From contig NZ_SMFV01000001.1 of NCBI RefSeq assembly GCF_004339575.1, positions 175,119 through 239,118 of the forward strand: a DNA stretch of 64,000 nucleotides, given 5' to 3'. The position numbers and the translations under genes were made by a program. This DNA is from Phorcysia thermohydrogeniphila (lineage in GTDB: Bacteria > Aquificota > Aquificia > Desulfurobacteriales > Desulfurobacteriaceae). This document shows positions 15,310 through 48,394 of this stretch, piece by piece (the stretch's first letter is position 1; every line of letters starts with the position of its first letter). The notes under the pieces were generated by a model that did no database searches, was not told where the DNA came from, and was given only the letters and a program-made list of their open reading frames with translations.

Positions 15310-15400
15310 CAGGGAGCTCCCTCCTATTTATGATTTTCTCTTGGATGGTGGTCTTTGGATTTGTAGTTTTCTGCTTCACGGTTATACTGAGAGAGGGAAA

Positions 15401-18115
15401 ATGATAAGGCTCAGAAGTCTTAAGCTACACGGATTCCTCTCTCACAGGGAAACGGAGCTCACCTTTGATGACGAGGCCTACGTAATCCTTGGGGAGAACG
15501 CCTCAGGAAAGACCTCCATCCTCAGGGGAATCTTCTTTGCACTCTTTGGGAAAGACTTTACTGCCGAAAAGTTAGAGAGGGTAGTAAACAGGGACTCAAC
15601 GAGTTTACAGGTGGAGCTCTCCTTCCTCCACAGAGGGACTAACTACAGGATTAAGAGGAAGTTCTCGGCGCTAAGGAAAAAGAGCGAGGCAGAGCTCTAC
15701 AAAGGAAACGCCTTATATGCAAGTGGCGTAAAGAACGTAAACTACGTAATTGAAAAGGAGCTCGGCCTTGACTCACATCTATTCAGGAACACGGTTTACG
15801 TTCCACAGGGAGAGATACTCACCCTCTTTAACCTCCAGAGGAAGGAAAAGAGACAGGTTCTAAACAGGCTACTGGGCTTAGAGGAAATCGGTAAAAGGCA
15901 CGAGGAGGTAAAGAACTTTATATCAAGGCTTAAGGCCCTAAGGGACTCCCTCCTTAAAAGTCAGGAACTCTTAGAGGAGATAAAGTCTGAGCTTTTAAAA
16001 ACGGAAAAGGAAATAGAAGAAAAAGAAGAGGAGCTAAATGAAAAGAGAGAACAGTTAAAGGAAGAGGAGAAACTATTAAAAGATCAGGAAAATCTCTACG
16101 AGAGCTTAGTAGAGAAGAGAGAGAAGTTCCTAAGGCTCACAGACAGCCTCTCCCGTGTAGAGAAGGAGATAAGGGAAAGGGAAGCCGAGCTAAAGGAGCT
16201 ATCCCAGAGAATAGAGAAGGTAGAAGCCCTTAAAGGGAAAATTCCTGAGTTAAGGGAGTGTGTTAAGCTCCTCAAGCCCCTAAAGGAGATAAAGTCCCTC
16301 CTTTCTCAGATTGCAGAAAAGAAAAATGAGCTCTTAGCCCTCCAGAAGGAAACCTTAAACCTTGAAAGGATAAAGGAGGAGGTGGAGAACCTCCAGAGTG
16401 AGATACCGGAAATTGAGAAGGAGCTAAGGGAAACGGGAGCTCTCCTTGAGGAAAGAGAGAAGGAGCTAAAAGAGGCCGAAGAGAAGTTAAGGGAACTGAG
16501 AGAAACCGAAAGGTTTTATAGGAGCCTTTTAACCTCCCTTAAGGAAAACGAAGAAAGGCTTAAAGGAGTTGAGGAGGAGATTGAAAAAATCCCAAAGGTA
16601 GAACCTCAAGAAAGGGCCAAGGAGGTAGAAAGGTTAAAGTCAGAAGTGGAAAAGATAAGGGAGGAACTCTCAGCTCTAAGGGTCAAAATCTCTGAGGCCA
16701 AGAGGAAAGAAAACCTACTTGAGGAAACAAACAGCCCAGAGTGCCCCGTATGTGGCTCTCCGATGGAGGAGGAAAAGAGGAAAAGACTCCTACAGGAGAG
16801 CAGAAAAATAGTAAGAAAGGCTGAAGAAGAACTAAAAAGGCTTGAGGAGCTCCTTGAATCTAAGGAAAGAGCCCTTAAGGAGTCCGAAAAACTACTAAAG
16901 GAGGAACTTGTTAACGCAGAAAGGAGGAAGGCCTTAAAGGAGGAAGAGAAGAGACTGAAGGAGAAACTAACAACACTTCAGAGGAAGCTAAAAGAGCTAA
17001 ACTTTAAAGAGGAAGAAATCTCTTCACTTGAGAGAAGGGACTCAGAGCTAAAGAGGGAAGTAGCCAAGCTAAAGGAGAGGAAGGAGCTCCTAAGGAAGAG
17101 ACTATCTGAAACGGACAGGAAGCTAAAGGAGCGCAGGACTAAGTTCTCAGAGGAAAAACTGAGAGAGCTCCAAAAGAAAATAAGAACTATAGAAAAAGAG
17201 ATAGAGGAGCTCCTTTCAAAGATAAAGGAGATAAAGAGGGAGCACAACCTCAAGGTATCAAAAGCGAGGGAAGTTGACGGTGAAATAGAGAAACTTGAAA
17301 AGCTAAAAGAGGAGCTAAATAAGATAGAGGGCGAGGTCAAAAACCTACCTGCCTACATTGAAGAAAAGGGCAAGAAAGAGAAGAGACTGAAGGAACTTAC
17401 AGAGGAGAGGGAAAACCTCTTAGAGGCCATAAAGAGGCTTGACTTTAAAAAGGAAGCCCTTGAGACCGTTGAAAAGACCTTGAAGAAACAGAAGGAAACT
17501 GTTGAAACCCTTAAAAGCTCCATCTCTAAGCTTGAAGGGGAGTTAAAGGCTCTGAGGAAAAAGGTAGAGCTTGACAGGGAAAAACTGAAGAGAAGGGAAA
17601 AAGAGTCTAAACTCCTTGCAAAAACGGAGGATTCTTTAAGAATCCTCAAAGCAGTCTCAGAGGGTATCCACCCAGAAAAAGGCTTCCTCCAGAAGGTTAG
17701 AAAATCCCTCCTGCCACAGATTTCCCGCTACTGCAGGGAGTTCTTTGAGGAGTTTGACTTTGAGTTTGGGGACTTGGAAATCTCCGAGGACCTCACGGTA
17801 ACTTTTAGCGTTCCCGGTGGTGGGAGGGTGGAGCTCTCAGACTTTTCAGGTGGACAGCAGATAGCCTTTGCCCTCTCCCTCAGGTTTGCAATGGCACGCT
17901 ACTTTGCCCAGAACTTTGAGCTCCTCATACTTGATGAGCCCACAATTCACCTTGACCAGCAGAGAAGACAGGCACTAACAGACCTGCTACTAAAGCTAAA
18001 AGTTAAAATACCCCAGATGGTAATCGTTACCCACGACCCGGAGCTTGAAGTCGTCGGAGACAGAGTTATAAGAGTTAAAAACGTTAACGGAGTTTCAGAA
18101 GTAACCGTAAGCTAA
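15401..18115 (+). CDS. sbcC: SbcC/Rad50-family SMC-like ATPase with zinc hook
   Basis: ATG at 15401 (RBS GAGAGGGAAA). Walker A GENASGKTS, a ~600-aa K/E-rich coiled coil with central CPVCG zinc hook, C-terminal signature/Walker B LILDEPT. No adjacent sbcD/mre11. Confidence 0.8.
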   Translation: MIRLRSLKLHGFLSHRETELTFDDEAYVILGENASGKTSILRGIFFALFGKDFTAEKLERVVNRDSTSLQVELSFLHRGTNYRIKRKFSALRKKSEAELYKGNALYASGVKNVNYVIEKELGLDSHLFRNTVYVPQGEILTLFNLQRKEKRQVLNRLLGLEEIGKRHEEVKNFISRLKALRDSLLKSQELLEEIKSELLKTEKEIEEKEEELNEKREQLKEEEKLLKDQENLYESLVEKREKFLRLTDSLSRVEKEIREREAELKELSQRIEKVEALKGKIPELRECVKLLKPLKEIKSLLSQIAEKKNELLALQKETLNLERIKEEVENLQSEIPEIEKELRETGALLEEREKELKEAEEKLRELRETERFYRSLLTSLKENEERLKGVEEEIEKIPKVEPQERAKEVERLKSEVEKIREELSALRVKISEAKRKENLLEETNSPECPVCGSPMEEEKRKRLLQESRKIVRKAEEELKRLEELLESKERALKESEKLLKEELVNAERRKALKEEEKRLKEKLTTLQRKLKELNFKEEEISSLERRDSELKREVAKLKERKELLRKRLSETDRKLKERRTKFSEEKLRELQKKIRTIEKEIEELLSKIKEIKREHNLKVSKAREVDGEIEKLEKLKEELNKIEGEVKNLPAYIEEKGKKEKRLKELTEERENLLEAIKRLDFKKEALETVEKTLKKQKETVETLKSSISKLEGELKALRKKVELDREKLKRREKESKLLAKTEDSLRILKAVSEGIHPEKGFLQKVRKSLLPQISRYCREFFEEFDFEFGDLEISEDLTVTFSVPGGGRVELSDFSGGQQIAFALSLRFAMARYFAQNFELLILDEPTIHLDQQRRQALTDLLLKLKVKIPQMVIVTHDPELEVVGDRVIRVKNVNGVSEVTVS

Positions 18116-23640: not shown

Positions 23641-26600
23641 ATGCTGAAGGCCGGAATAGACGTAGGTTCAACTACAGTTAAGGGTGTCCTACTTGACGAG
23701 AAAGGGAACATTCTCTTTGAGCACTACGAAAGACACGAAGCCCGCCAAGCCGAAAAGGTTCTGAAGCTCCTTGAAAAGTTTGAAGAAATTGCAGGAAAGG
23801 AATTCCACCTCTTTATGACGGGAAGTGGAGGAGGAGACTTAGCAAAAGCCCTAAGGGTTCGCTTTATTCAGGAGGTTAACGCCGTAAGTTTGGCAGTTGA
23901 AAGACTCCACCCAGAAACGAGCTCTGCCGTAGAGCTCGGTGGTCAGGACGCAAAGATGATTTTCTGGATAGACGCCGGCGGTTTTAGAAGAAAAATCACA
24001 ACGATGAACGACAAGTGTGCCGGCGGAACAGGTGCAACGATTGACAGGATAATATCAAAGCTAAAGCTTCCACTGGAGGTGGCTACATCCGTAAGGTTTG
24101 ACCCCTCTAAGGTTCACCCGGTAGCTGCAAAGTGTGGAGTTTTTGCCGAGACGGACATAAACAGCCTCCAGAAGGCAGGAGTTCCCGCCGAGGAGCTCCT
24201 CATATCTCTCTTCAATGCAATCGTCGTTCAGAACCTTGCCGTCCTAACAAGAGGACACACGCTAAGGCCAAAAGTTATTCTCCTTGGAGGTCCAAATACG
24301 TTCTTTCCGGCACTTGTAGAGTGCTGGCGCTACCACCTACAGAAACTCTGGGAAGAAAAAGGGGTAAAGTACGACAGTTTTTCCGTTTTCCTCCCAGAAA
24401 ACTCCCAGTACTTTGCAGCCATAGGTAGCGCCCTCTTTGCAGAGTTTGAAGAGAGTCCCTACAGGGGGAAAGACGGACTCCTTGAGTTTAGCAGGCGCTC
24501 CATCACAGTCTTTAAGGCAAGAACGGGAGAGAGAGGCCTCCTAAAGCCGGGAGAGGATCTTGAGGAGTTTCGCAGAAAGTACTCGGTAAAGCCCTTCTCT
24601 CCTCCAGTCTTTAAAAGAGGCGAAAAGGTTAAGGCCTTTCTCGGAATTGACGGAGGCTCTACCTCCACAAAGGCCGTTCTCATCAGTAAAAAAGGAGAGC
24701 TCCTTGCCACTGCCTATACCCTCTCCAAGGGAAACCCCTTAGAAGACGTAAAAGAGGTCGTAAGGAGTTTAAAGGAGCAGGTAGAAAGGTGGGGAGCAGA
24801 GCTCTCAGTCCTTTCAGTAGGAGTTACGGGCTACGCCAAGGACATGCTAAAAGAGACCCTCGGGGCAGACGTAGCTGTAGTTGAAACTGTAGCCCACACG
24901 ATATCTGCAAAGCACTTCTTTAAAGACGTTGACGTAATAGTTGACGTTGGTGGACAGGACATCAAGGTAATGATTTTAAAGGACGGTGAAGTAAAGGACT
25001 TTAAGCTAAATACACAGTGCTCGGCAGGAAACGGCTACTTCCTCCAGTCAACGGCAGAAAGGTTCGGATATAAGCCAGAAGAGTTCGCAGAGGTGGCCTT
25101 TAAGGCAGAGTACGCCCCACGGTTTAACTTTGGCTGTGCCGTTTTCTTAGAGCAGGACATCGTCAACTTTCAGCGCCTTGGCTGGAAGCCCCACGAGATA
25201 ATGGCAGGACTTGCAAAAGTTTTACCGAAAAACATCTGGCTCTACGTCGTTAAAGAGCCCAACCTCAGGAAGTTAGGAAGGCGCTTTTTACTTCAGGGTG
25301 GGACTCAGAGGAACTTAGCAGCCGTAAAAGCCCAGTACGACTTCATAAAGGAGAGAGTGCCTGAGGCCGAGGTCCTCGTTCACCCGATAGCCGGAGAGGC
25401 AGGAGCTTTCGGTGCAGCTATTGAAGCAATGAGGAACTACGACGGCCGGAGCTCCTTCCTCGGAATAGAGGCCCTCTTAAACCTTAACTTTGAGATAAAG
25501 AGCGATGAGACTACCCGCTGTAGTTTCTGCACGAACAGGTGCTTGAGAACATTTATCTACGTAAACACAAAAAAGGGAAAGAGGAGCTACATCATAGCCC
25601 CCTGTGAGAAAGGAACGGCAGAAAACATCTCAGGCGTAAAGGAGGTAGTCAAAAAGCTAAACAGAATCCGCGAAGAGAACCCCAACCTTCAGGAGATTTC
25701 AGCAAAGAAGGTTTTTGAGAGTTACCCGGTTAAAAAGGTTTACAGGGAAAAGAGAGGTTTCCTCTTCTGGAAGAAGAACGTAATAGACAGGAGGAAAAAG
25801 CTAAGGTTTGGAATTCCAAGAGTTCTAAACTTTTACGCCCTTGCCCCCTTCTTTAGGGGATATCTTGAGTCTCTCGGAGTTGAGAAGTTTATCTTTTCGG
25901 ACTACACCTCTGAAAAGCTTGTGAGGGAGGAGCTCCGTGGAGGAGCTATAGACCCATGCTTTCCAAGTAAAGTAGTCCTCGCCCACATTAGAAACCTCTT
26001 AAAGAAAAAGCCGGACGTTATATTCCTTCCAAAGGTTGCGACACTAAGGAGCATGTTTAAAGACAGCGAGGCCTCCCACGCCTGTCCGACGGTTACAGGA
26101 ACGCCAATATCTGTAAGGGCTGTCCTGACAAAGGAGGAGGACGTCTTTAAAAAGAACGGCATTACCCTCCTTGACCCCCTACTCCACTTTCACGATAGGG
26201 AGCTCCTTGAGTATGAAATGTTCACTACCTTTAAGGAGCTCTTAGACTTAAGTAAAGAGGAAAACAGGAAGGCCATAGAGGAGGGTTTTAGAGCTCTCTC
26301 CCAGTACCAAGAGGAACTCAGAAAACTTGGAGAGAAAGTATTAAGGAAGGTAGAGCTTGAAAACAGAATCGCCATTTTAGTTCTCGGAAGACCCTACCAC
26401 AACGACCCCGGAATAAACCACGGGATAACAGAGGAACTCCAAAAGAGAGGCTACCCGATACTGACAATAGACTCCTTGCCACTTAAGGAAGAGTTCCTTA
26501 AAAAGGTATTTAAAGAGAGAGACCCCTTCACAATTAGGGACATCTGGAAAAAGTCCTACAGCGAGAATACAAACAGGAAGGTGTGGGGAGCTCTTTACGC

Positions 26601-26850
26601 AGCAGGCCACCCTAACCTTGCAATATTAGACCTTTCTTCTTTCAGGTGTGGCCACGACGCCCCCATCTACTCCCTCATTGAGGAAATAGCCGAAAAAAGT
26701 GGAACTCCTTACTTCACCTTCCACGAAATAGACGAAAACCGCCCCTCCGGTTCAATAAAAATAAGGGTTGAGACGATAGACTACTTCCTAAAGGAAAGAA
26801 TCAAAAAACTCCTCCAGTCCAACCAACTCTCTTCCGAAGAGGCTGTATAA
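23641..26850 (+). CDS. CoA-substrate-specific enzyme activase-like fusion: two BadF/BcrA/HgdC-type ATPase domains plus a 2-hydroxyacyl-CoA dehydratase D-component-like C-terminal region
   Basis: Two acetate/sugar-kinase-fold starts (GIDVGSTTVKGVLLD; LGIDGGSTSTKAVLI), each with an activase Cys-containing block. The ~450-aa C-terminal region has Cys clusters (CSFCTNRC). Confidence 0.75.
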   Translation: MLKAGIDVGSTTVKGVLLDEKGNILFEHYERHEARQAEKVLKLLEKFEEIAGKEFHLFMTGSGGGDLAKALRVRFIQEVNAVSLAVERLHPETSSAVELGGQDAKMIFWIDAGGFRRKITTMNDKCAGGTGATIDRIISKLKLPLEVATSVRFDPSKVHPVAAKCGVFAETDINSLQKAGVPAEELLISLFNAIVVQNLAVLTRGHTLRPKVILLGGPNTFFPALVECWRYHLQKLWEEKGVKYDSFSVFLPENSQYFAAIGSALFAEFEESPYRGKDGLLEFSRRSITVFKARTGERGLLKPGEDLEEFRRKYSVKPFSPPVFKRGEKVKAFLGIDGGSTSTKAVLISKKGELLATAYTLSKGNPLEDVKEVVRSLKEQVERWGAELSVLSVGVTGYAKDMLKETLGADVAVVETVAHTISAKHFFKDVDVIVDVGGQDIKVMILKDGEVKDFKLNTQCSAGNGYFLQSTAERFGYKPEEFAEVAFKAEYAPRFNFGCAVFLEQDIVNFQRLGWKPHEIMAGLAKVLPKNIWLYVVKEPNLRKLGRRFLLQGGTQRNLAAVKAQYDFIKERVPEAEVLVHPIAGEAGAFGAAIEAMRNYDGRSSFLGIEALLNLNFEIKSDETTRCSFCTNRCLRTFIYVNTKKGKRSYIIAPCEKGTAENISGVKEVVKKLNRIREENPNLQEISAKKVFESYPVKKVYREKRGFLFWKKNVIDRRKKLRFGIPRVLNFYALAPFFRGYLESLGVEKFIFSDYTSEKLVREELRGGAIDPCFPSKVVLAHIRNLLKKKPDVIFLPKVATLRSMFKDSEASHACPTVTGTPISVRAVLTKEEDVFKKNGITLLDPLLHFHDRELLEYEMFTTFKELLDLSKEENRKAIEEGFRALSQYQEELRKLGEKVLRKVELENRIAILVLGRPYHNDPGINHGITEELQKRGYPILTIDSLPLKEEFLKKVFKERDPFTIRDIWKKSYSENTNRKVWGALYAAGHPNLAILDLSSFRCGHDAPIYSLIEEIAEKSGTPYFTFHEIDENRPSGSIKIRVETIDYFLKERIKKLLQSNQLSSEEAV

Positions 26851-26907
26851 ATCGTGAGGGGGGATTCCATCCCCCTCAAACTCCCCCTTCTGAAAACATC
26901 AAAAACC

Positions 26908-27168
26908 CATCTACTTTTCAGGGCAGACAACCGTGAGGGGGGATTATCATCCCCCCTCAGACTCCCCCCTATGAAGAACTTTAAAAACCTTCCACTTTTC
27001 AGGGCATTTCAACGAGTATCAAGAGGAAGATTAGACAGATAAGTTTTGCCAGCGAATTGTCGCAATCCCTTCCACTTTTCAGGGCATTTCAACCAAAGCG
27101 ACATTGAGAGCATGGAGATTGACGACCTGCCTCGTCGCAATCCCTTCCACTTTTCAGGGCTTTTCAAC
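26908..27168 (-). CRISPR. Orphan CRISPR mini-array: two intact 35-nt repeats plus two 5'-degenerate repeats, spacers 40 and 45 nt, leader on the right (27169-27398)
   Basis: Plus-strand GTCGCAATCCCTTCCACTTTTCAGGGC(A/T)TTTCAAC at 27059-27093 and 27134-27168. Truncated copies end at 27013 and 26931. Unique spacers. The minus-strand repeat is GTTGAAATGCCCTGAAAAGTGGAAGGGATTGCGAC. Confidence 0.6.
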
Positions 27169-27398
27169 AGGTCAAAATTTGAAGCATTGAAAATCAAGGG
27201 CTTCCCGTTCTAAAGAACTTTAGTAATAACTACAACTCGCTGTATTGCAACGTCTAAAGACCCAAAAAGGTTACACCTTCCTGAACTTTGTTTAGGTTGT
27301 TGAAATGCCCTAAGCCCTATTCAGCTTTCAAAGAACCCTATTTGTATTGTAGCAAAAGTTTAAAATTATCACGACTTAAAACCGTAGGAGGTTAAGGA

Positions 27399-29087
27399 AT
27401 GCTTACAGTCCTTTTCATAGTGGCCATCCTCCTATTTGGGCTGGCCTTCTTCACCTACGGTAGGTTCTTAAGGGATAAAGTCTTTAACCTTAACGATAAG
27501 AACAAAACCCCAGCCCACACGATGAAGGACGGAGTTGACTACGTCCCAGCTCCAGCGCCGGTTCTTTTAGGACACCACTTTTCTTCTATTGCAGGTGCAG
27601 GGCCTATTCTTGGCCCAATCAACGCAGCAACCTCTTGGGGATGGCTACCTGCCTACCTCTGGATAATAATCGGAAACATCTTCTTTGGTGGCGTTCACGA
27701 TATGAGCGCCCTCATTGCCTCCATTCGCAACAAGGCAAGGTCAATTGCAGAGATAGGAAGCACATACCTTTCAAAAAGGGCAGGCTTCATCTTTAAGCTC
27801 CTCATATGGCTTGCCCTTCTATACGTTATCGCCGTCTTCATAAACGTTGCCCAAATGACCTTTAACGCAAAGATGCCGGTAGTGGAAAACGGCCAGATTG
27901 TTAAGGAAATCCCCATCGGTGGGGGCGTTGCAACCTCTGCCATTATCTACATCGTTTTGGCAATAATCTTTGGTTTTCTCGTCTACCACTTTAAAAAGAG
28001 CCTTAAGCTTGCAACCCTCATCTTTGTCATCCTTGTCTACGGAGCTGTTTACGTTGGACAGCTCTTTCCCATAAACCTTTCAGCAAACGCTTGGAACATC
28101 ATTCTTCTCCTCTACGTTGCGATAGCCTCCGTTACGCCGGTCTGGATTCTCCTTCAGCCGAGGGACTACCTATCAAGCTTCCTCCTCTACGGCGCAGTTA
28201 TAGGAGCGGGAATTGGAATACTCCTCTCTTTTGGGAAGGTTGAATCTAACCTTCCGGCCTTCATAGGATTTTTTAGCTCCCACAACGAGCCCCTAATTCC
28301 CTTACTCTTTGTAGTTATAGCCTGTGGCTCTATCTCAGGATTTCACTCCCTCGTAGGCTCTGGAACAACGTCTAAACAACTTGACAAGGAAAGCGACGCC
28401 CTAACCGTTGGCTACGGTGCAATGCTCCTTGAGGGAGTTGTAGCCGTTATGTCAGTGATATTCGTGATGGCACTAACAACGACAGAGCTTGAGGCCCTCA
28501 GGAAGAGCTCCAACATAGGCGCTATCTACGGCGCAGGAATCGGGCGCTTTATGAACTTCCTTGGAATTCCCGAAACCGTCGGGATGGCCTTCGGTATGCT
28601 CGCCCTTTCTTCCTTCATCCTAACGAGCACAGATACGGGAACGCGCCTTGCCCGTTACGTATTTACAGAACTCACAGGGATTAAAAACCGCTTTATAGCC
28701 ACCGGAGCGTCCCTCATTATCCCTGCGCTCCTCGTCTTCCTCAAGTACAAAGAACCCCTCCCAAACGGAGAGGTCAAGGTTCTACCCGTATGGAAGGCAC
28801 TGTGGCCGGTCTTTGGAGCTACAAACCAGCTCATAGCAGCCTTAGCCCTGTTTGTGGTTATGATATGGCTGATAAAGACCGGAAAAGGACGCTACTGGTT
28901 CATACCGGGAGTTCCTGCTTTCTTTATGGCAGTGATTACTCTCTGGTCACTTGTTATGCTATTTATTAAGTGGAAATTCAGCGTAATAGGCATAGCTGCT
29001 CTAATTCAGGTAGTTTTAGCGACTTGGATATTCTACGAGGGAGCTCTAGCACTCAAGAAGTTACAGGAGGAAAGGCATGGAAGCTAA
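27399..29087 (+). CDS. cstA: Carbon starvation protein A (CstA family peptide/pyruvate transporter)
   Basis: RBS GGAGG. CstA family blocks (PAHTMKDGVDYVPA, GHHFSSIAGAGPI.GP). ~16 TM helices. Confidence 0.9.
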   Translation: MLTVLFIVAILLFGLAFFTYGRFLRDKVFNLNDKNKTPAHTMKDGVDYVPAPAPVLLGHHFSSIAGAGPILGPINAATSWGWLPAYLWIIIGNIFFGGVHDMSALIASIRNKARSIAEIGSTYLSKRAGFIFKLLIWLALLYVIAVFINVAQMTFNAKMPVVENGQIVKEIPIGGGVATSAIIYIVLAIIFGFLVYHFKKSLKLATLIFVILVYGAVYVGQLFPINLSANAWNIILLLYVAIASVTPVWILLQPRDYLSSFLLYGAVIGAGIGILLSFGKVESNLPAFIGFFSSHNEPLIPLLFVVIACGSISGFHSLVGSGTTSKQLDKESDALTVGYGAMLLEGVVAVMSVIFVMALTTTELEALRKSSNIGAIYGAGIGRFMNFLGIPETVGMAFGMLALSSFILTSTDTGTRLARYVFTELTGIKNRFIATGASLIIPALLVFLKYKEPLPNGEVKVLPVWKALWPVFGATNQLIAALALFVVMIWLIKTGKGRYWFIPGVPAFFMAVITLWSLVMLFIKWKFSVIGIAALIQVVLATWIFYEGALALKKLQEERHGS

Positions 29088-46529: not shown

Positions 46530-47219
46530 TTAGGCTTCAATCGTTGAAATTATGCGTTTTAACCTCTCACATCCTCCAACAAAACTCCTATTTTTACAAC
46601 ACTCCGCTTCTTTAATAGAAACCTTTATTTTTGAAGATGTAATATCAAGAAGCTTCTCATAGGCTAACACTATCTTCGCTCTCAAACGGAACTCGTGTTT
46701 TCCCCTTTCCTTGCTTAATAAAAGTACTGGAAAAGGTTCTAAGGTCATAAATAACTTTTTCGCAAATTCTTCATACTTCTCCTTAGGCGGGTATAGCAGA
46801 ACAAAGCAAATAACTTCCTTTGCTTCTTTCCAGAGTGTTTTATATTCCTTGCAAAATTCTACAAACTTCTTCACTACCTTTTTACAATAATCTTCTGCAA
46901 TTTTCTCCAATCTCTCTTCATTAATTTCTCCGTTCTTAAACAAGTCTCGGTAAGGTTTCCCATCTTTTTTGGTTGGAACAAAACGTTTATACTCTAAAGC
47001 CAAAATAACGATAGGTTCTTCCTGTGGAAACTCTACTACAACATCTATTTTAGGAGTAGAAGCTCTACCAATAACAGAATCTTGATGTTTTGACCAAGCC
47101 TCGTAGTGGAAAACGTCCATATCCAACAAAGTTTCATACTCTTTTTCTCTACAAGGGAATTCCTTTCTTTCATCAAGTTCCTTTAACTTTTTCCTGAATA
47201 CCGCTAAATCACCCTCCAT
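46530..47219 (-). CDS. Small partner protein of the OLD-type ATPase: uncharacterised, PD-(D/E)xK-like (or Toprim-like) putative nuclease
   Basis: 229 aa; its start lies 16 nt inside the ATPase gene. Candidate PD-(D/E)xK core PKIDVVVEF...(13 aa)...LALEYK, or alternatively a Toprim-like pattern E2 ... D33-M-D35. Lies inside the AT-rich segment. Confidence 0.45.
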   Translation of the reverse strand: MEGDLAVFRKKLKELDERKEFPCREKEYETLLDMDVFHYEAWSKHQDSVIGRASTPKIDVVVEFPQEEPIVILALEYKRFVPTKKDGKPYRDLFKNGEINEERLEKIAEDYCKKVVKKFVEFCKEYKTLWKEAKEVICFVLLYPPKEKYEEFAKKLFMTLEPFPVLLLSKERGKHEFRLRAKIVLAYEKLLDITSSKIKVSIKEAECCKNRSFVGGCERLKRIISTIEA

Positions 47220-48394
47220 AAAGGCTCTCCCAACAGGTCAAAAATCATTCCTACATTATCATTAGCACATTTTAATTGGCCATCCTCCGCTAAATAAAAG
47301 TCAACCTTCTCAGAAATTTGTTCAGTATAGTAACGCAGAGCTTGGACTATGTAAGGACTGTGGGTTGTTAGCAGTATCCTAGTCCCTAAGGTTTTGTGTA
47401 TCTCCACTAAAATCCTCACGTATTCAAGTTGCCACTTAGGATGAAGGTGAACTTCCGGCTCGTCAATTATAAGAATGGAGTTATAGGAAACTGTTCCATT
47501 TTCTAAAAGCAACAAGAGAATTCCGAAAGATTTTATTCCCGTTGCTGTGCCAAGCATTCTAAAAATTCTTCCTTCTTTTTCAAACAAAATCTCATCCTTC
47601 TCTAACTTAAGGTTTCCTCTTATAATACTCTTTATCTCCTTGGCAATCTCTAAACCATCTTCCGCTTTCTTTTCTCTTAACAGCTTTCTAACTAAATCCC
47701 TCATTATAAAAGGATATGGATACTTCAACCTATCCTTTTTTTTAATCACCAATCTATAGAAGAACTCAACCAAGTCCATAACAACGGGTGTACATATCAA
47801 AGTTGCATCTTTAAAAGGCCTAACTTTTTTACCATTTACTTCAGGGACACTGTCGTAAAAGGAAACGGATTCTGAAGTCAGTAGAACCTTATAGAGCTCT
47901 GTCCCATCTTCAGCTAAAAGGTATACCTCTCCTTTTTCATTCTCAGAAATTAAAGCGTCCAGAGCTCCAAAGTTATAAAGTACCTGACTGTAAAATTCCC
48001 GCCTTCTCCTTTCAAAAAAAGCTTTTTCCTCATTAACCCAAAGTTCCAGTTCCTTCACTTCTTTTCCTAATTCCTTACCTAATCCCTTACCGAAAAGAAG
48101 GTTATACAACTTTTCCACGTGTTTTTTAGATTTTACATCTTCTGGAATCTCCTTAACCAAGGAAGGTACAGTTTGGACTAACTTTGTTTTTATCTTCTCC
48201 AATAAACCTTTTCTTTTACCCTCCATGTAACTTTCAAGCTTATGTTCTGCTATATTATCCGCCTTAACTATAGAAAAAAGCATTTTTCCTACTGTGCTTT
48301 TTCCTGAATCATTTTCACCGGCAATGAGAGTTATACCACGCAAGTTAATATCTGCCGATTTTATAAGTCCTATATTTTTTAGAGTTAACCTCAT
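47204..48394 (-). CDS. OLD-family/AAA_21-type ABC ATPase (AbiLi/PtuA-like)
   Basis: Walker A GENDSGKST. Walker B plus signature IIDEPEVHLHP (the DEPE.HLHP motif typical of OLD/AAA_21 ATPases). H-loop LLTTHSP. Visibly AT-rich relative to flanking genes. Confidence 0.7.
   Translation of the reverse strand: MRLTLKNIGLIKSADINLRGITLIAGENDSGKSTVGKMLFSIVKADNIAEHKLESYMEGKRKGLLEKIKTKLVQTVPSLVKEIPEDVKSKKHVEKLYNLLFGKGLGKELGKEVKELELWVNEEKAFFERRRREFYSQVLYNFGALDALISENEKGEVYLLAEDGTELYKVLLTSESVSFYDSVPEVNGKKVRPFKDATLICTPVVMDLVEFFYRLVIKKKDRLKYPYPFIMRDLVRKLLREKKAEDGLEIAKEIKSIIRGNLKLEKDEILFEKEGRIFRMLGTATGIKSFGILLLLLENGTVSYNSILIIDEPEVHLHPKWQLEYVRILVEIHKTLGTRILLTTHSPYIVQALRYYTEQISEKVDFYLAEDGQLKCANDNVGMIFDLLGEPLWRVI

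What the first reader, a model, noticed from the sequence alone, without database searches (positions are those of the whole stretch)
26852..27398. Orphan CRISPR mini-array with a type-III-like repeat (…AAGGGATTGCGAC), decaying hairpin-containing terminal units and no cas genes in 64 kb
Seen in sequence: two identical 35-nt direct repeats lie at 27059-27093 and 27134-27168 (one A/T difference), separated by a unique 40-nt spacer. A 45-nt unique spacer precedes them. Further left are two progressively degenerate copies, ...TTCCACTTTTCAGGGCATTTCAAC ending 27013 and ...TCTACTTTTCAGGGCAGACAAC ending 26931. Each is embedded in a duplicated ~81-nt unit carrying a strong GC hairpin (GAGGGGGGAT-tatc-ATCCCCCCTC). 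Read on the minus strand the repeat is GTTGAAATGCCCTGAAAAGTGGAAGGGATTGCGAC. From memory this shares the GTTG... start and the ...AAGGGATTGCGAC end with Thermus-type III-A/III-B repeats. Cas6 processing would leave the canonical 8-nt ATTGCGAC 5' handle. That similarity is recalled, not searched. Repeat decay toward the left places the leader at 27169-27398, with transcription on the minus strand. The leader contains an inverted partial repeat copy (GTTGAAATGCCCT at ~27297-27309, plus orientation), possibly the remnant of a divergent second array. Flanking genes are a CoA-enzyme activase and cstA, with no cas gene in the window. The array is therefore either trans-served by a distant cas locus or a decaying relic.
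Basis: partly seen in the sequence, partly recalled or inferred. Interest (0 to 1): 0.65.

Follow-up and report, generated by a model that had tools for sequence, protein, structure and literature searches.

The report
Stand-alone two-spacer CRISPR array
This is a genuine but very small CRISPR immune-memory array in the deep-sea vent bacterium Phorcysia thermohydrogeniphila; it lies far from the type III-A cas genes that probably serve it, which is an ordinary arrangement, but its far end carries a conserved hairpin "cap" whose role is unknown.

Summary
Two 35-nt repeats with one mismatch lie at 27059-27093 and 27134-27168. Two unique spacers, two degenerate repeat copies and a duplicated 81-nt hairpin unit complete the array. 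The repeat family GTTGAAATGCCCT-N10-AGGGATTGCGAC forms arrays of 2-48 repeats in Aquificota. In Desulfurobacteriaceae these arrays lie beside cas10-csm2-5-cas6-cas1-cas2 loci (type III-A). The 230-nt flank at 27169-27398 is homologous to nine other leaders, four of them next to cas1-cas2. This fixes the orientation as minus-strand transcription. The window holds no cas gene. The host, Phorcysia thermohydrogeniphila, carries a csm operon with cas6 and a second array on the same 525-kb contig, so the array is not an orphan at genome level. A relative with 88% CstA identity has an empty site with a 60-nt gap. The 91% lineage has the same leader but different spacers, or none. The locus is therefore a dynamic inserted cassette, not a dead relic. 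The "decaying" hairpin units are a conserved module found in 14 instances across about ten arrays or array variants. The inverted 13-mer is a conserved leader block, not a second array. The hairpin core also matches an unexplained, widespread intergenic motif. Verdict: an ordinary stand-alone mini-array, and a new member of a known kind.

The parts
27134..27168 (-). Repeat R1 (leader-proximal). Sense sequence GTTGAAAAGCCCTGAAAAGTGGAAGGGATTGCGAC, one mismatch to R2.
27094..27133 (-). Spacer S1, 40 nt, unique. Presumably the newest spacer.
   Evidence: No match in phages or plasmids, IMG/VR or any fetched locus.
27059..27093 (-). Repeat R2, the family-typical sequence GTTGAAATGCCCTGAAAAGTGGAAGGGATTGCGAC. 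Predicted hairpin CCCU/AGGG with a 10-nt loop.
27014..27058 (-). Spacer S2, 45 nt, unique.
26979..27013 (-). Truncated terminal repeat R3. The 3' part, including the ATTGCGAC tag, is replaced from GGAAGG onward by TTTTTAAAG. The same kind of truncation followed by a T-run occurs in L009, L020, L026 (twice), L164, L165, L167 and L172.
26933..26978 (-). Pseudo-spacer of cap unit A. Sense sequence ...GGGGGGAGTCTGAGGGGGGAT-gata-ATCCCCCCTCAC. The hairpin is at 26934-26959.
26898..26932 (-). Degenerate repeat R4. Its 5' end reads TTGTCT instead of GTTGAAA, and its 3' end is again replaced by a T-run.
26851..26897 (-). Cap unit B, a tandem duplicate of unit A. The hairpin at 26855-26878 starts 5 nt after the activase stop codon (26848-26850).
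27169..27356 (-). Leader of about 190 nt up to the promoter. It is homologous to nine other leaders. Conserved blocks are CTTGATTTTCAATG (27185-27198), TCTTTGAAAGCTGAAT (27319-27334) and an extended -10-like TGCTACAAT (-10 hexamer at 27346-27351).
   Evidence: The -10 was read by eye; the sigma-70 scan found no full -35/-10 site.
27299..27311 (+). Inverted copy of the first 13 nt of the repeat, inside the leader. It is conserved in the orthologous leaders (L164-L167) and in L023, and partly conserved (GGGC-W-TT) in other leaders.
23641..26850 (+). Flanking gene: CoA-enzyme activase (BcrAD_BadFG + DUF2229), convergent with the array.
27399..29087 (+). Flanking gene: cstA, divergent from the array. 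Its roughly 45-nt promoter and 5'UTR are retained from the empty-site state.

Best explanation
The locus is a functional-looking, stand-alone CRISPR array of the repeat family associated with type III-A systems in Desulfurobacteriaceae. The host is Phorcysia thermohydrogeniphila.

A cassette of about 500 bp (26851 to about 27356) lies between the stop codon of a CoA-enzyme activase gene and the cstA promoter. The cassette holds a leader with its own promoter, then R1-S1-R2-S2, then a doubled terminal cap.

Proposed mechanism:
1. Transcription starts at the leader's extended -10 promoter and runs leftward on the minus strand.
2. The host Cas6 (Pfam PF10040) is encoded in the csm operon elsewhere on the same 525-kb contig. 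It binds the CCCU/AGGG repeat hairpin and cuts 8 nt before the repeat's 3' end.
3. This yields two crRNAs with an AUUGCGAC 5' tag. They are loaded into the Csm (Cas10-Csm2-5) complex.
4. Csm carries out transcription-dependent interference and cyclic-oligoadenylate signalling. A SAVED-Lon effector is encoded next to the csm genes.
5. The truncated repeat, T-run and G6/C6 hairpin end the transcription unit. They also insulate it from the convergent activase gene.

Shown here: the array anatomy; homology of repeat, leader and cap to cas-adjacent arrays; presence of csm and cas6 in the host; an empty site and spacer turnover in relatives.

Inferred: transcription, Cas6 cleavage position, loading into Csm, terminator function of the cap, and how new spacers are acquired. 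No cas1 or cas2 was seen in the host.
For: 1. Repeat family. Arrays of 2-48 repeats with the same conserved flanks and a variable 10-nt loop occur in 24 genome loci. A compensatory stem variant CCCG/CGGG occurs in L028-L030 and in the host's second array. The fold is -8 kcal/mol with z = -2.25.
2. Link to cas genes. In Desulfurobacterium pacificum a repeat 1 nt different from the window's follows cas10-csm2-RAMPx3-cas6-Card1-x-Csx3-cas1-cas2-cas2. The same operon type is seen in L028-L041. L016 has cas1-cas2 directly upstream of a three-repeat array with this leader.
3. Leader homology. Homology extends over about 230 nt across 10 arrays, with invariant blocks.
4. Host cas genes. CstA is 100% identical to the P. 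thermohydrogeniphila protein on a 525,043-nt contig. Csm1 of the same species lies on a contig of the same length. In the same sequencing run (SRR6479595), the locus holds cas10-csm2-RAMPx3-cas6 plus an array end with the same cap. Host Cas6 is 58.6% identical to D. pacificum Cas6.
5. Dynamics. The lineage with 88% CstA identity has only a 60-nt gap and no array. The 91% lineage has the same leader (78% identity) with different spacers, no spacers, or an internal cap. The rpsO-GNAT site carries mini-arrays with different spacers in two genomes.
6. The Logan assembly of the host breaks inside the leader, 24 nt from R1. This is expected if the repeat-proximal sequence is multi-copy.
Against: - No protospacer was found for either spacer in phage or plasmid collections, in IMG/VR half-spacer scans, or in any fetched locus.
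- No cas1 or cas2 was found in the 17 kb around the host csm operon. No Phorcysia-labelled Cas1 appeared among 81 Cas1 homologues. Spacer uptake in this strain may therefore be impossible now.
- The sigma-70 consensus scan found no full promoter in the leader.
- R1 carries a substitution at repeat position 8.
- The host's cas-adjacent array uses a slightly different repeat (CCCG/CGGG stem, different loop). That its Cas6 accepts the window's repeat is assumed, not shown.
- There are no expression data.
Confidence: 0.85

Rival explanations
1. Decaying relic. The array was once active but is now a non-functional remnant that is no longer transcribed or used, and it is slowly eroding from the trailer side.
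For: Only two spacers remain. Two of the four repeat copies are degenerate. R1 has a substitution. No cas gene lies within 26 kb on the left side (window start to array) or 36 kb on the right side (array to window end). No cas1 or cas2 was detected for the host. No protospacers were found.
Against: The leader is intact and keeps all conserved blocks of the family. The "decay" is a conserved module also found at the ends of large cas-adjacent arrays, such as the 12-repeat array of D. pacificum. The host has an apparently complete csm-cas6 operon. The orthologous site in close relatives shows gain and loss of different spacers.
Confidence: 0.1
2. Non-immune, regulatory mini-array (CreTA-like, or a crRNA-like regulator). 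The two "spacers" would guide Cas complexes to host transcripts or promoters rather than to invaders.
For: Mini-arrays of 2-3 repeats with this leader recur at housekeeping sites. The spacers have no mobile-element match.
Against: Spacers differ completely between orthologous sites (L020 versus L004; the window versus L164-L166). This is the opposite of a conserved regulatory guide. There is no partial self-match in the window or the host cas locus beyond chance. The repeats are canonical, not psi-repeats. The array is not adjacent to cas genes or to a toxin gene.
Confidence: 0.03
3. Not CRISPR at all, but a dispersed intergenic repeat (REP or MITE-like) that happens to occur twice.
For: The trailer hairpin core matches a widespread intergenic motif that is part of a MITE in other bacteria.
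Against: The 35-mer was never found dispersed in cellular genomes. In every bacterial genome or metagenome locus it sits in regularly spaced arrays with unique spacers. It is often next to cas1-cas2 or csm genes, and it has a homologous leader. One solitary copy was found, in a predicted viral contig (L163).
Confidence: 0.01

Closest known systems
Thermus thermophilus HB8 type III-A/III-B repeat family (Rfam CRISPR-DR36) processed by Cas6A/Cas6B
   Same: 35-36 nt long. Starts GTTG and ends GGGATTGCGAC. Has an internal short G/C stem. The implied 8-nt tag is AUUGCGAC. It is served by a PF10040-type Cas6 and a Csm complex. The statement about the Thermus crRNA tag rests on my own knowledge; the similarity was tested.
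   Different: Only 16.8 bits against a gathering score of 38, so it is not a member of that Rfam family. The middle of the repeat differs: the stem is CCCU/AGGG with a 10-nt A-rich loop, rather than GCCCC/GGGG.
Isolated CRISPR arrays far from cas genes (surveyed by Shmakov et al., CRISPR J 2020; cited from my own knowledge)
   Same: An array without adjacent cas genes whose repeat matches that of a cas-adjacent array in the same genome. It is presumed to be served in trans.
   Different: Here the leader, the empty site, the spacer turnover and a conserved terminal cap are documented for one specific lineage.
Dispersed arrays with a conserved long leader in Methanocaldococcus jannaschii (the LR/SR elements of Bult et al. 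1996; cited from my own knowledge)
   Same: Many small arrays scattered among housekeeping genes. Each is preceded by the same conserved leader of 200-400 nt.
   Different: A different phylum and a different repeat. The cap module with a G6/C6 hairpin is, as far as I know, not described there.
Staphylococcus epidermidis / Streptococcus thermophilus type III-A (Csm) systems
   Same: The host operon is cas10-csm2-csm3-csm4-csm5-cas6. The expected mechanism is Cas6 processing, an 8-nt tag, 3' trimming, and transcription-dependent targeting with cOA signalling.
   Different: The array is not adjacent to the operon. The accessory effectors differ: SAVED-Lon and a PLD-HerA fusion in the host, and Card1 and Csx3 in relatives.
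CreTA and other crRNA-like regulatory mini-arrays
   Same: Very small array-like units.
   Different: The repeats are canonical, the spacers are not conserved, the array is not next to cas genes, and no toxin gene is present.

Membership tests
CRISPR array (generic) | At least two near-identical direct repeats of 23-47 nt, separated by unique spacers of similar length | tested here: met
   Two 35-nt repeats with one mismatch, spacers of 40 and 45 nt, and two degenerate copies in register.
CRISPR array (generic) | The same repeat forms arrays adjacent to cas genes elsewhere | tested here: met
   L016 (cas1-cas2), L026 D. pacificum (full type III-A operon plus cas1-cas2), L028-L041, and the host locus L172.
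CRISPR array (generic) | A conserved A/T-rich leader on one side and a degenerate terminal repeat on the other | tested here: met
   Leader alignment A2 with 10 arrays. Where the last repeat is degenerate, the decay is at its 3' (ATTGCGAC) end.
CRISPR array (generic) | Spacers derived from mobile genetic elements | tested here: inconclusive
   No significant hit in phages or plasmids (E of 3 or more). No exact half-spacer match in IMG/VR. Vent viromes are poorly sampled.
CRISPR array (generic) | Transcription and processing into crRNAs | not testable with these tools
   No RNA data. Only a conserved extended -10-like box read by eye.
Type III-A (Csm)-served array | The genome encodes cas10/csm1, csm2-5 and cas6 | tested here: met
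   Host locus L172 holds HD-Cas10 (926 aa), Csm2_III-A, three RAMP proteins and a PF10040 Cas6.
Type III-A (Csm)-served array | The array is adjacent to the csm operon | tested here: not met
   No cas gene in the 64-kb window. The csm locus does not overlap the window.
Type III-A (Csm)-served array | crRNAs carry an 8-nt repeat-derived 5' tag (here AUUGCGAC) | not testable with these tools
   Inferred from the repeat sequence and the Cas6 family only.
Rfam CRISPR-DR36 (Thermus-type repeat) | Covariance-model score at or above the gathering threshold (38 bits) | tested here: not met
   16.8 bits, E = 0.62. No Rfam family reaches gathering score anywhere in the window.
CreTA-like regulatory mini-array | Degenerate psi-repeats flanking a conserved guide with a partial match to a neighbouring toxin or host promoter, located beside cas genes | tested here: not met
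   The repeats are canonical. Spacers are not conserved between orthologous sites. There are no self-matches. The array is not beside cas genes.
Dispersed REP/MITE repeat | Copies scattered singly in intergenic regions without regular unique spacers | tested here: not met
   There is no other copy in the window. All copies in cellular genomes lie in arrays. The only solitary copy is in a viral contig.

The most novel reading that the evidence does not exclude
The terminal "cap" consists of a truncated repeat, a T-run, GGGGGGAGTYTGAGGGGGG-loop-CCCCCCTCA, and a 5'-degenerate repeat. It may be a discrete functional element rather than decay.

One reading is that it is a portable terminator or insulator hairpin. 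Its core is shared with MITEs and intergenic elements in unrelated bacteria. In this reading it closes CRISPR transcription units and lets leader-repeat-cap cassettes spread to new housekeeping sites. When it lies next to the leader, as in L164, L165 and L167, it would switch off the array downstream.

The alternative is that the element is mobile and targets CRISPR repeats.
Probability: 0.2. Interest if true: 0.55.

Novelty: new member of a known kind. Interest (0 to 1): 0.3.

Why it matters
As a CRISPR array the locus adds little. Isolated arrays served in trans by a distant type III system are common.

It is a clean natural example of how a minimal leader-repeat-cap cassette appears at a housekeeping site. 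Close relatives show the empty site, an occupied site, a site with no spacers, and a site with different spacers.

The conserved cap module, and the match of its hairpin core to a widespread uncharacterised motif, could lead to a defined array terminator or insulator, or to a repeat-targeting mobile element. Either would be useful for annotating array boundaries and orientation in Aquificota.

Tried and rejected
1. PADLOC scan of all 61 window proteins through one alignment. This was uninformative because generic ATPase families filled the 25-family list. I replaced it with Pfam scans and precomputed Pfam from encoding contigs.
2. NCBIfam scan of large ORFs beside Aquificaceae arrays. They were all housekeeping genes, with no effector genes.
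3. Looking for the host cas1 through Cas1 homologues and cluster members. None came from the host sample. The host cas locus was finally found through Cas10.
4. Protospacer searches. No hits.
5. The sigma-70 promoter and terminator scan found no promoter in the leader and no canonical terminator at the hairpins.
6. Rfam on the window, on the region, and on 18 loci carrying the G6/C6 motif. Only the sub-threshold CRISPR-DR36 hit appeared.
7. The metagenome scan for the hairpin was meant to collect more CRISPR caps. Only L054 was a CRISPR cap.
8. Gene-orientation statistics around that motif showed no bias.
9. A literature search for the motif sequence found nothing relevant.
10. Rejected idea: the inverted 13-mer marks a second, divergent array. 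It is a conserved leader block.
11. Rejected idea: the array site is orthologous to the array near exbD-tonB in L005. The gene order and side differ.
12. The idea that GGGGGGAG-TCT-GAGGGGGG is a purine mirror repeat forming a triplex was considered but not supported. In the MITE copies the first G-run has 4 G and the second has 6.

Full report
OBSERVATION

Two 35-nt direct repeats lie at 27059-27093 and 27134-27168 and differ at one base. Two weaker copies in register lie at 26979-27013 (83%) and 26898-26932 (69%). Spacing is 75, 80 and 81 nt. The 35-mer occurs nowhere else in the 64 kb at up to 3 mismatches, and none of 100 shuffles produced a match. Tandem Repeats Finder reports the 81-nt unit at 26853-27006 (1.9 copies, 84% matches). 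Each unit holds a strong G/C hairpin, at 26934-26959 and 26855-26878. The inverted 13-mer GTTGAAATGCCCT lies at 27299-27311. The spacers (27094-27133 and 27014-27058) are unique. Only short ORFs that run through the repeats cross the region.

THE REPEAT IS A GENUINE CRISPR REPEAT

I scanned species-representative genomes for GTCGCAATCCCT-N8-12-AGGGCWTTTCAAC. This returned 24 loci from Aquificales, Aquificaceae, Desulfurobacteriaceae and Thermovibrio MAGs.

- In these loci the repeat forms regular arrays of 2 to 48 copies with unique spacers of 35-48 nt.
- Among 49 full-length repeat variants, the flanks GTTGAAATGCCCT and AGGGATTGCGAC are constant, and variation is concentrated in the 10-nt loop. 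This is partly by construction of the search pattern. One compensatory stem variant, CCCG/CGGG, was seen.
- The RNA folds into the expected small hairpin (-8 kcal/mol, z = -2.25).
- Where a terminal repeat is degenerate, the decay is at the ATTGCGAC end. This fixes the sense strand as the window's minus strand and places the leader at 27169 onward.
- Rfam gives only a sub-threshold match to CRISPR-DR36, the Thermus-type repeat (16.8 bits against 38). The recalled similarity is real, but the repeat is not a member of that family.

LEADER

The 230 nt to the right of R1 are homologous to the sequence upstream of the first repeat in nine other arrays (alignment A2).

- A TAnAAT box preceded by TGn (TGCTACAAT; -10 hexamer at 27346-27351) recurs, though it is variable across leaders.
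- Conserved blocks are TCTTTGAAAGnTGAAT, invariant at most positions (27319-27334), and a repeat-proximal CTTGATTTYCAA (27185-27198), which is conserved in most leaders but absent from L026 and L036.
- Four of these leaders (L026, L028, L032, L036) lie directly downstream of cas1-cas2 in type III-A loci.
- The generic sigma-70 scan found no full -35/-10 pair. The promoter assignment therefore rests on conservation and on my reading of an extended -10.
- The inverted 13-mer lies inside this leader. It is present in the closest leaders (L023 and L164-L167), and the homologous position in the others reads GGGC-W-TT. It is a conserved leader block, not the remnant of a second array. Its role is unknown. 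It could pair with the repeat's 5' half in the transcript, or act as a second protein-binding site on the DNA.

WHICH CAS SYSTEM

Cas1 and Cas2 lie directly upstream of a three-repeat array with this leader in Thermovibrio sp. L016 (TIGR00287, E = 2.9e-55). Homologues of that Cas1 led to the Desulfurobacterium pacificum locus. Its gene order is cas10 (HD, Csm1_B), csm2, three RAMP genes, cas6 (PF10040), Card1, an unknown gene, Csx3, cas1, cas2, cas2, the leader, and a 12-repeat array. That array's repeat differs from the window's by 1 nt. The same architecture recurs in metagenomic relatives. The family is therefore tied to type III-A systems.

HOST AND ITS CAS GENES

- The window's CstA is 100% identical to the Phorcysia thermohydrogeniphila protein, which lies on a 525,043-nt contig.
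- None of the annotated ORFs in the window is a cas gene.
- A Cas10 search found Csm1 of P. thermohydrogeniphila on a contig of the same length.
- The same sequencing run that carries the window's genes (SRR6479595) holds the locus cas10-csm2-RAMPx3-cas6. It is followed by a PLD-HerA fusion and preceded by a SAVED-Lon protease.
- About 4 kb upstream of cas10, at the contig end, is the end of a second array. Its repeat reads ..AATGCCCGAAAAAGTGAGCGGGATTGCGAC, and it ends in the same terminal module as the window's array.
- Host Cas6 is 58.6% identical to D. pacificum Cas6.
- No cas1 or cas2 lies in those 17 kb, and no Phorcysia-labelled Cas1 was among 81 Cas1 homologues. This is weak evidence, because many entries carry no name.

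The array is therefore an orphan only within the window. An interference module and a Cas6 of the right family are present. An adaptation module was not seen.

HISTORY OF THE SITE

In relatives whose CstA is 88% identical, the activase stop and the cstA start are 60 nt apart, with no leader or repeat (L168, L169). In the 91% lineage the same leader (78% identity) lies upstream of cstA, but the content differs by sample:

- L166 has at least three intact repeats with three other spacers.
- L167 has only a truncated repeat plus hairpin.
- L165 has a truncated repeat, a hairpin and a degenerate repeat.
- L164 has a cap next to the leader, followed by two spacers and a second cap.

None of these shares S1 or S2. 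Alignment of the junctions shows that cstA's roughly 45-nt promoter and 5'UTR are retained. The cassette from 26851 to about 27356 is therefore an insertion. A second conserved site (pnp-rpsO / GNAT) carries mini-arrays with different spacers in two genomes (L020 and L004). These data argue for a dynamic, used array rather than a fossil.

THE TERMINAL UNITS

The "decaying hairpin units" are a conserved module. It consists of a repeat whose last 6-8 nt are replaced by a T-run, then GGGGGGAGTYTGAGGGGGG-AW-loop-WT-CCCCCCTCAC, then a repeat whose first 4-6 nt are replaced. I found 14 instances: two in the window, L009, two in L026, L031, L054, two in L164, L165, L167 and L172, plus partial forms in L020 and L004. 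The apical stem pair varies as T-A, A-T or C-G.

The window carries a tandem duplication of this module. In the plus orientation the first hairpin starts 5 nt after the activase stop codon. It resembles the simple G5/C5 hairpins that follow ybgC in L009 and L016. I therefore propose that the module ends the array's transcription unit and insulates it from convergent transcription. This is inference. Neither orientation has a canonical U-tract after the hairpin.

AN UNEXPECTED FINDING

- In 111 unique hits, the three positions left free in the 5' part were always G, and the free position in the C-run was C in 108 of 111. The common core is GGGGAGTYTGAGGGGGG-loop-CCCCCCTCA.
- The first pair above the G/C run is Watson-Crick in 101 of 104 cases: C-G 76, A-T 24, T-A 1. 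The shuffle mean was 63 and the maximum 77.
- The contigs range from 32 to 76% G+C and carry no CRISPR arrays, except L054.
- The largest group is a roughly 230-nt MITE with inverted ends CTAGTTGTGCGTCTC...GAGACGGGACACTAG at CTAG sites.
- No Rfam family matches. There is no gene-orientation bias. I found no relevant literature.

Why the CRISPR cap of Desulfurobacteriaceae shares this core is unexplained.

SPACERS

Neither spacer matches phage or plasmid collections (best E = 3), IMG/VR by exact half-spacer, or any fetched locus. This neither supports nor refutes function.

VERDICT

This is a real, small, stand-alone CRISPR array of a type III-A-associated family. It is most likely transcribed from its own leader and served in trans by the host's Cas6 and Csm complex. 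It is a new member of a known kind and of low to moderate interest. The conserved cap and its widespread hairpin core are the only unusual elements.

Noticed in passing
L043-L162 (metagenome contigs); core equals window 26934-26969 and 26855-26887: The motif GGGGAGT(C/T)TGAGGGGGG-loop(7-12)-CCCCCCTCA is conserved in at least 111 distinct intergenic sites. The contigs range from 32 to 76% G+C and are unrelated to CRISPR. The first apical pair covaries. No Rfam family matches and I found no literature on it.
   Followed up: partly
L044, L049, L051, L056 and others (group A of the motif hits): A MITE of about 230 nt with terminal inverted repeats CTAGTTGTGCGTCTC...GAGACGGGACACTAG. It is inserted at CTAG/TAG sites right after stop codons (an IS630-like target). 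It carries two G6/C6 hairpins, including the motif above.
   Followed up: partly
L163 4395-4429 (IMGVR_UViG_3300028398_000028, 14.7 kb): A predicted viral contig carries one solitary copy of the repeat, with 1 mismatch to the window's. It lies in a short gap between small ORFs. This is a virus-borne solitary repeat unit.
   Followed up: no
L172 934-4174 and 11368-13308 (host csm locus, SRR6479595_10): Next to the host csm operon lie a SAVED-Lon protease (PADLOC CRISPR-Lon, E = 5.7e-70) with three small co-oriented genes (a CalpL-like cassette) and a PLD-HerA fusion (HerA, E = 7.6e-46). No cas1 or cas2 lies in these 17 kb.
   Followed up: partly
L016 6122-7695 and L009 2005-4972: A second cas1 is followed by a 211-212-aa protein with two Cas2 domains (a Cas2-Cas2 fusion). 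A ClpA/ClpB-like AAA protein of 334-338 aa lies between the mini-array and this cas1.
   Followed up: no
L012 3-2090 and L022 1-2142: Aquificales arrays are preceded by an unknown 237-258-aa protein, then cas2, cas1 and cas2. The unknown protein has no Pfam hit.
   Followed up: no
window 46530-48394 (minus strand): A 396-aa AAA_15/AAA_21 ATPase matches the PADLOC families HEC-02A (E = 4.7e-30), PD-T4-4_A and PtuA. It is followed by a 229-aa protein with no family hit. This may be a two-gene defence system.
   Followed up: partly
window 15341-18115 (plus strand): A 924-aa SMC/Rad50-like ATPase (AAA_23, AAA_21) has its best PADLOC match to LmuB (E = 3.2e-40). It may equally be an SbcC-type repair protein.
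   Followed up: no
L025 1-206 (Logan SRR6479595_28), equal to window 27193-27398: The independent assembly of the host sequencing run ends inside the leader, 24 nt from R1. This is consistent with the repeat-proximal sequence being multi-copy in the genome.
   Followed up: partly
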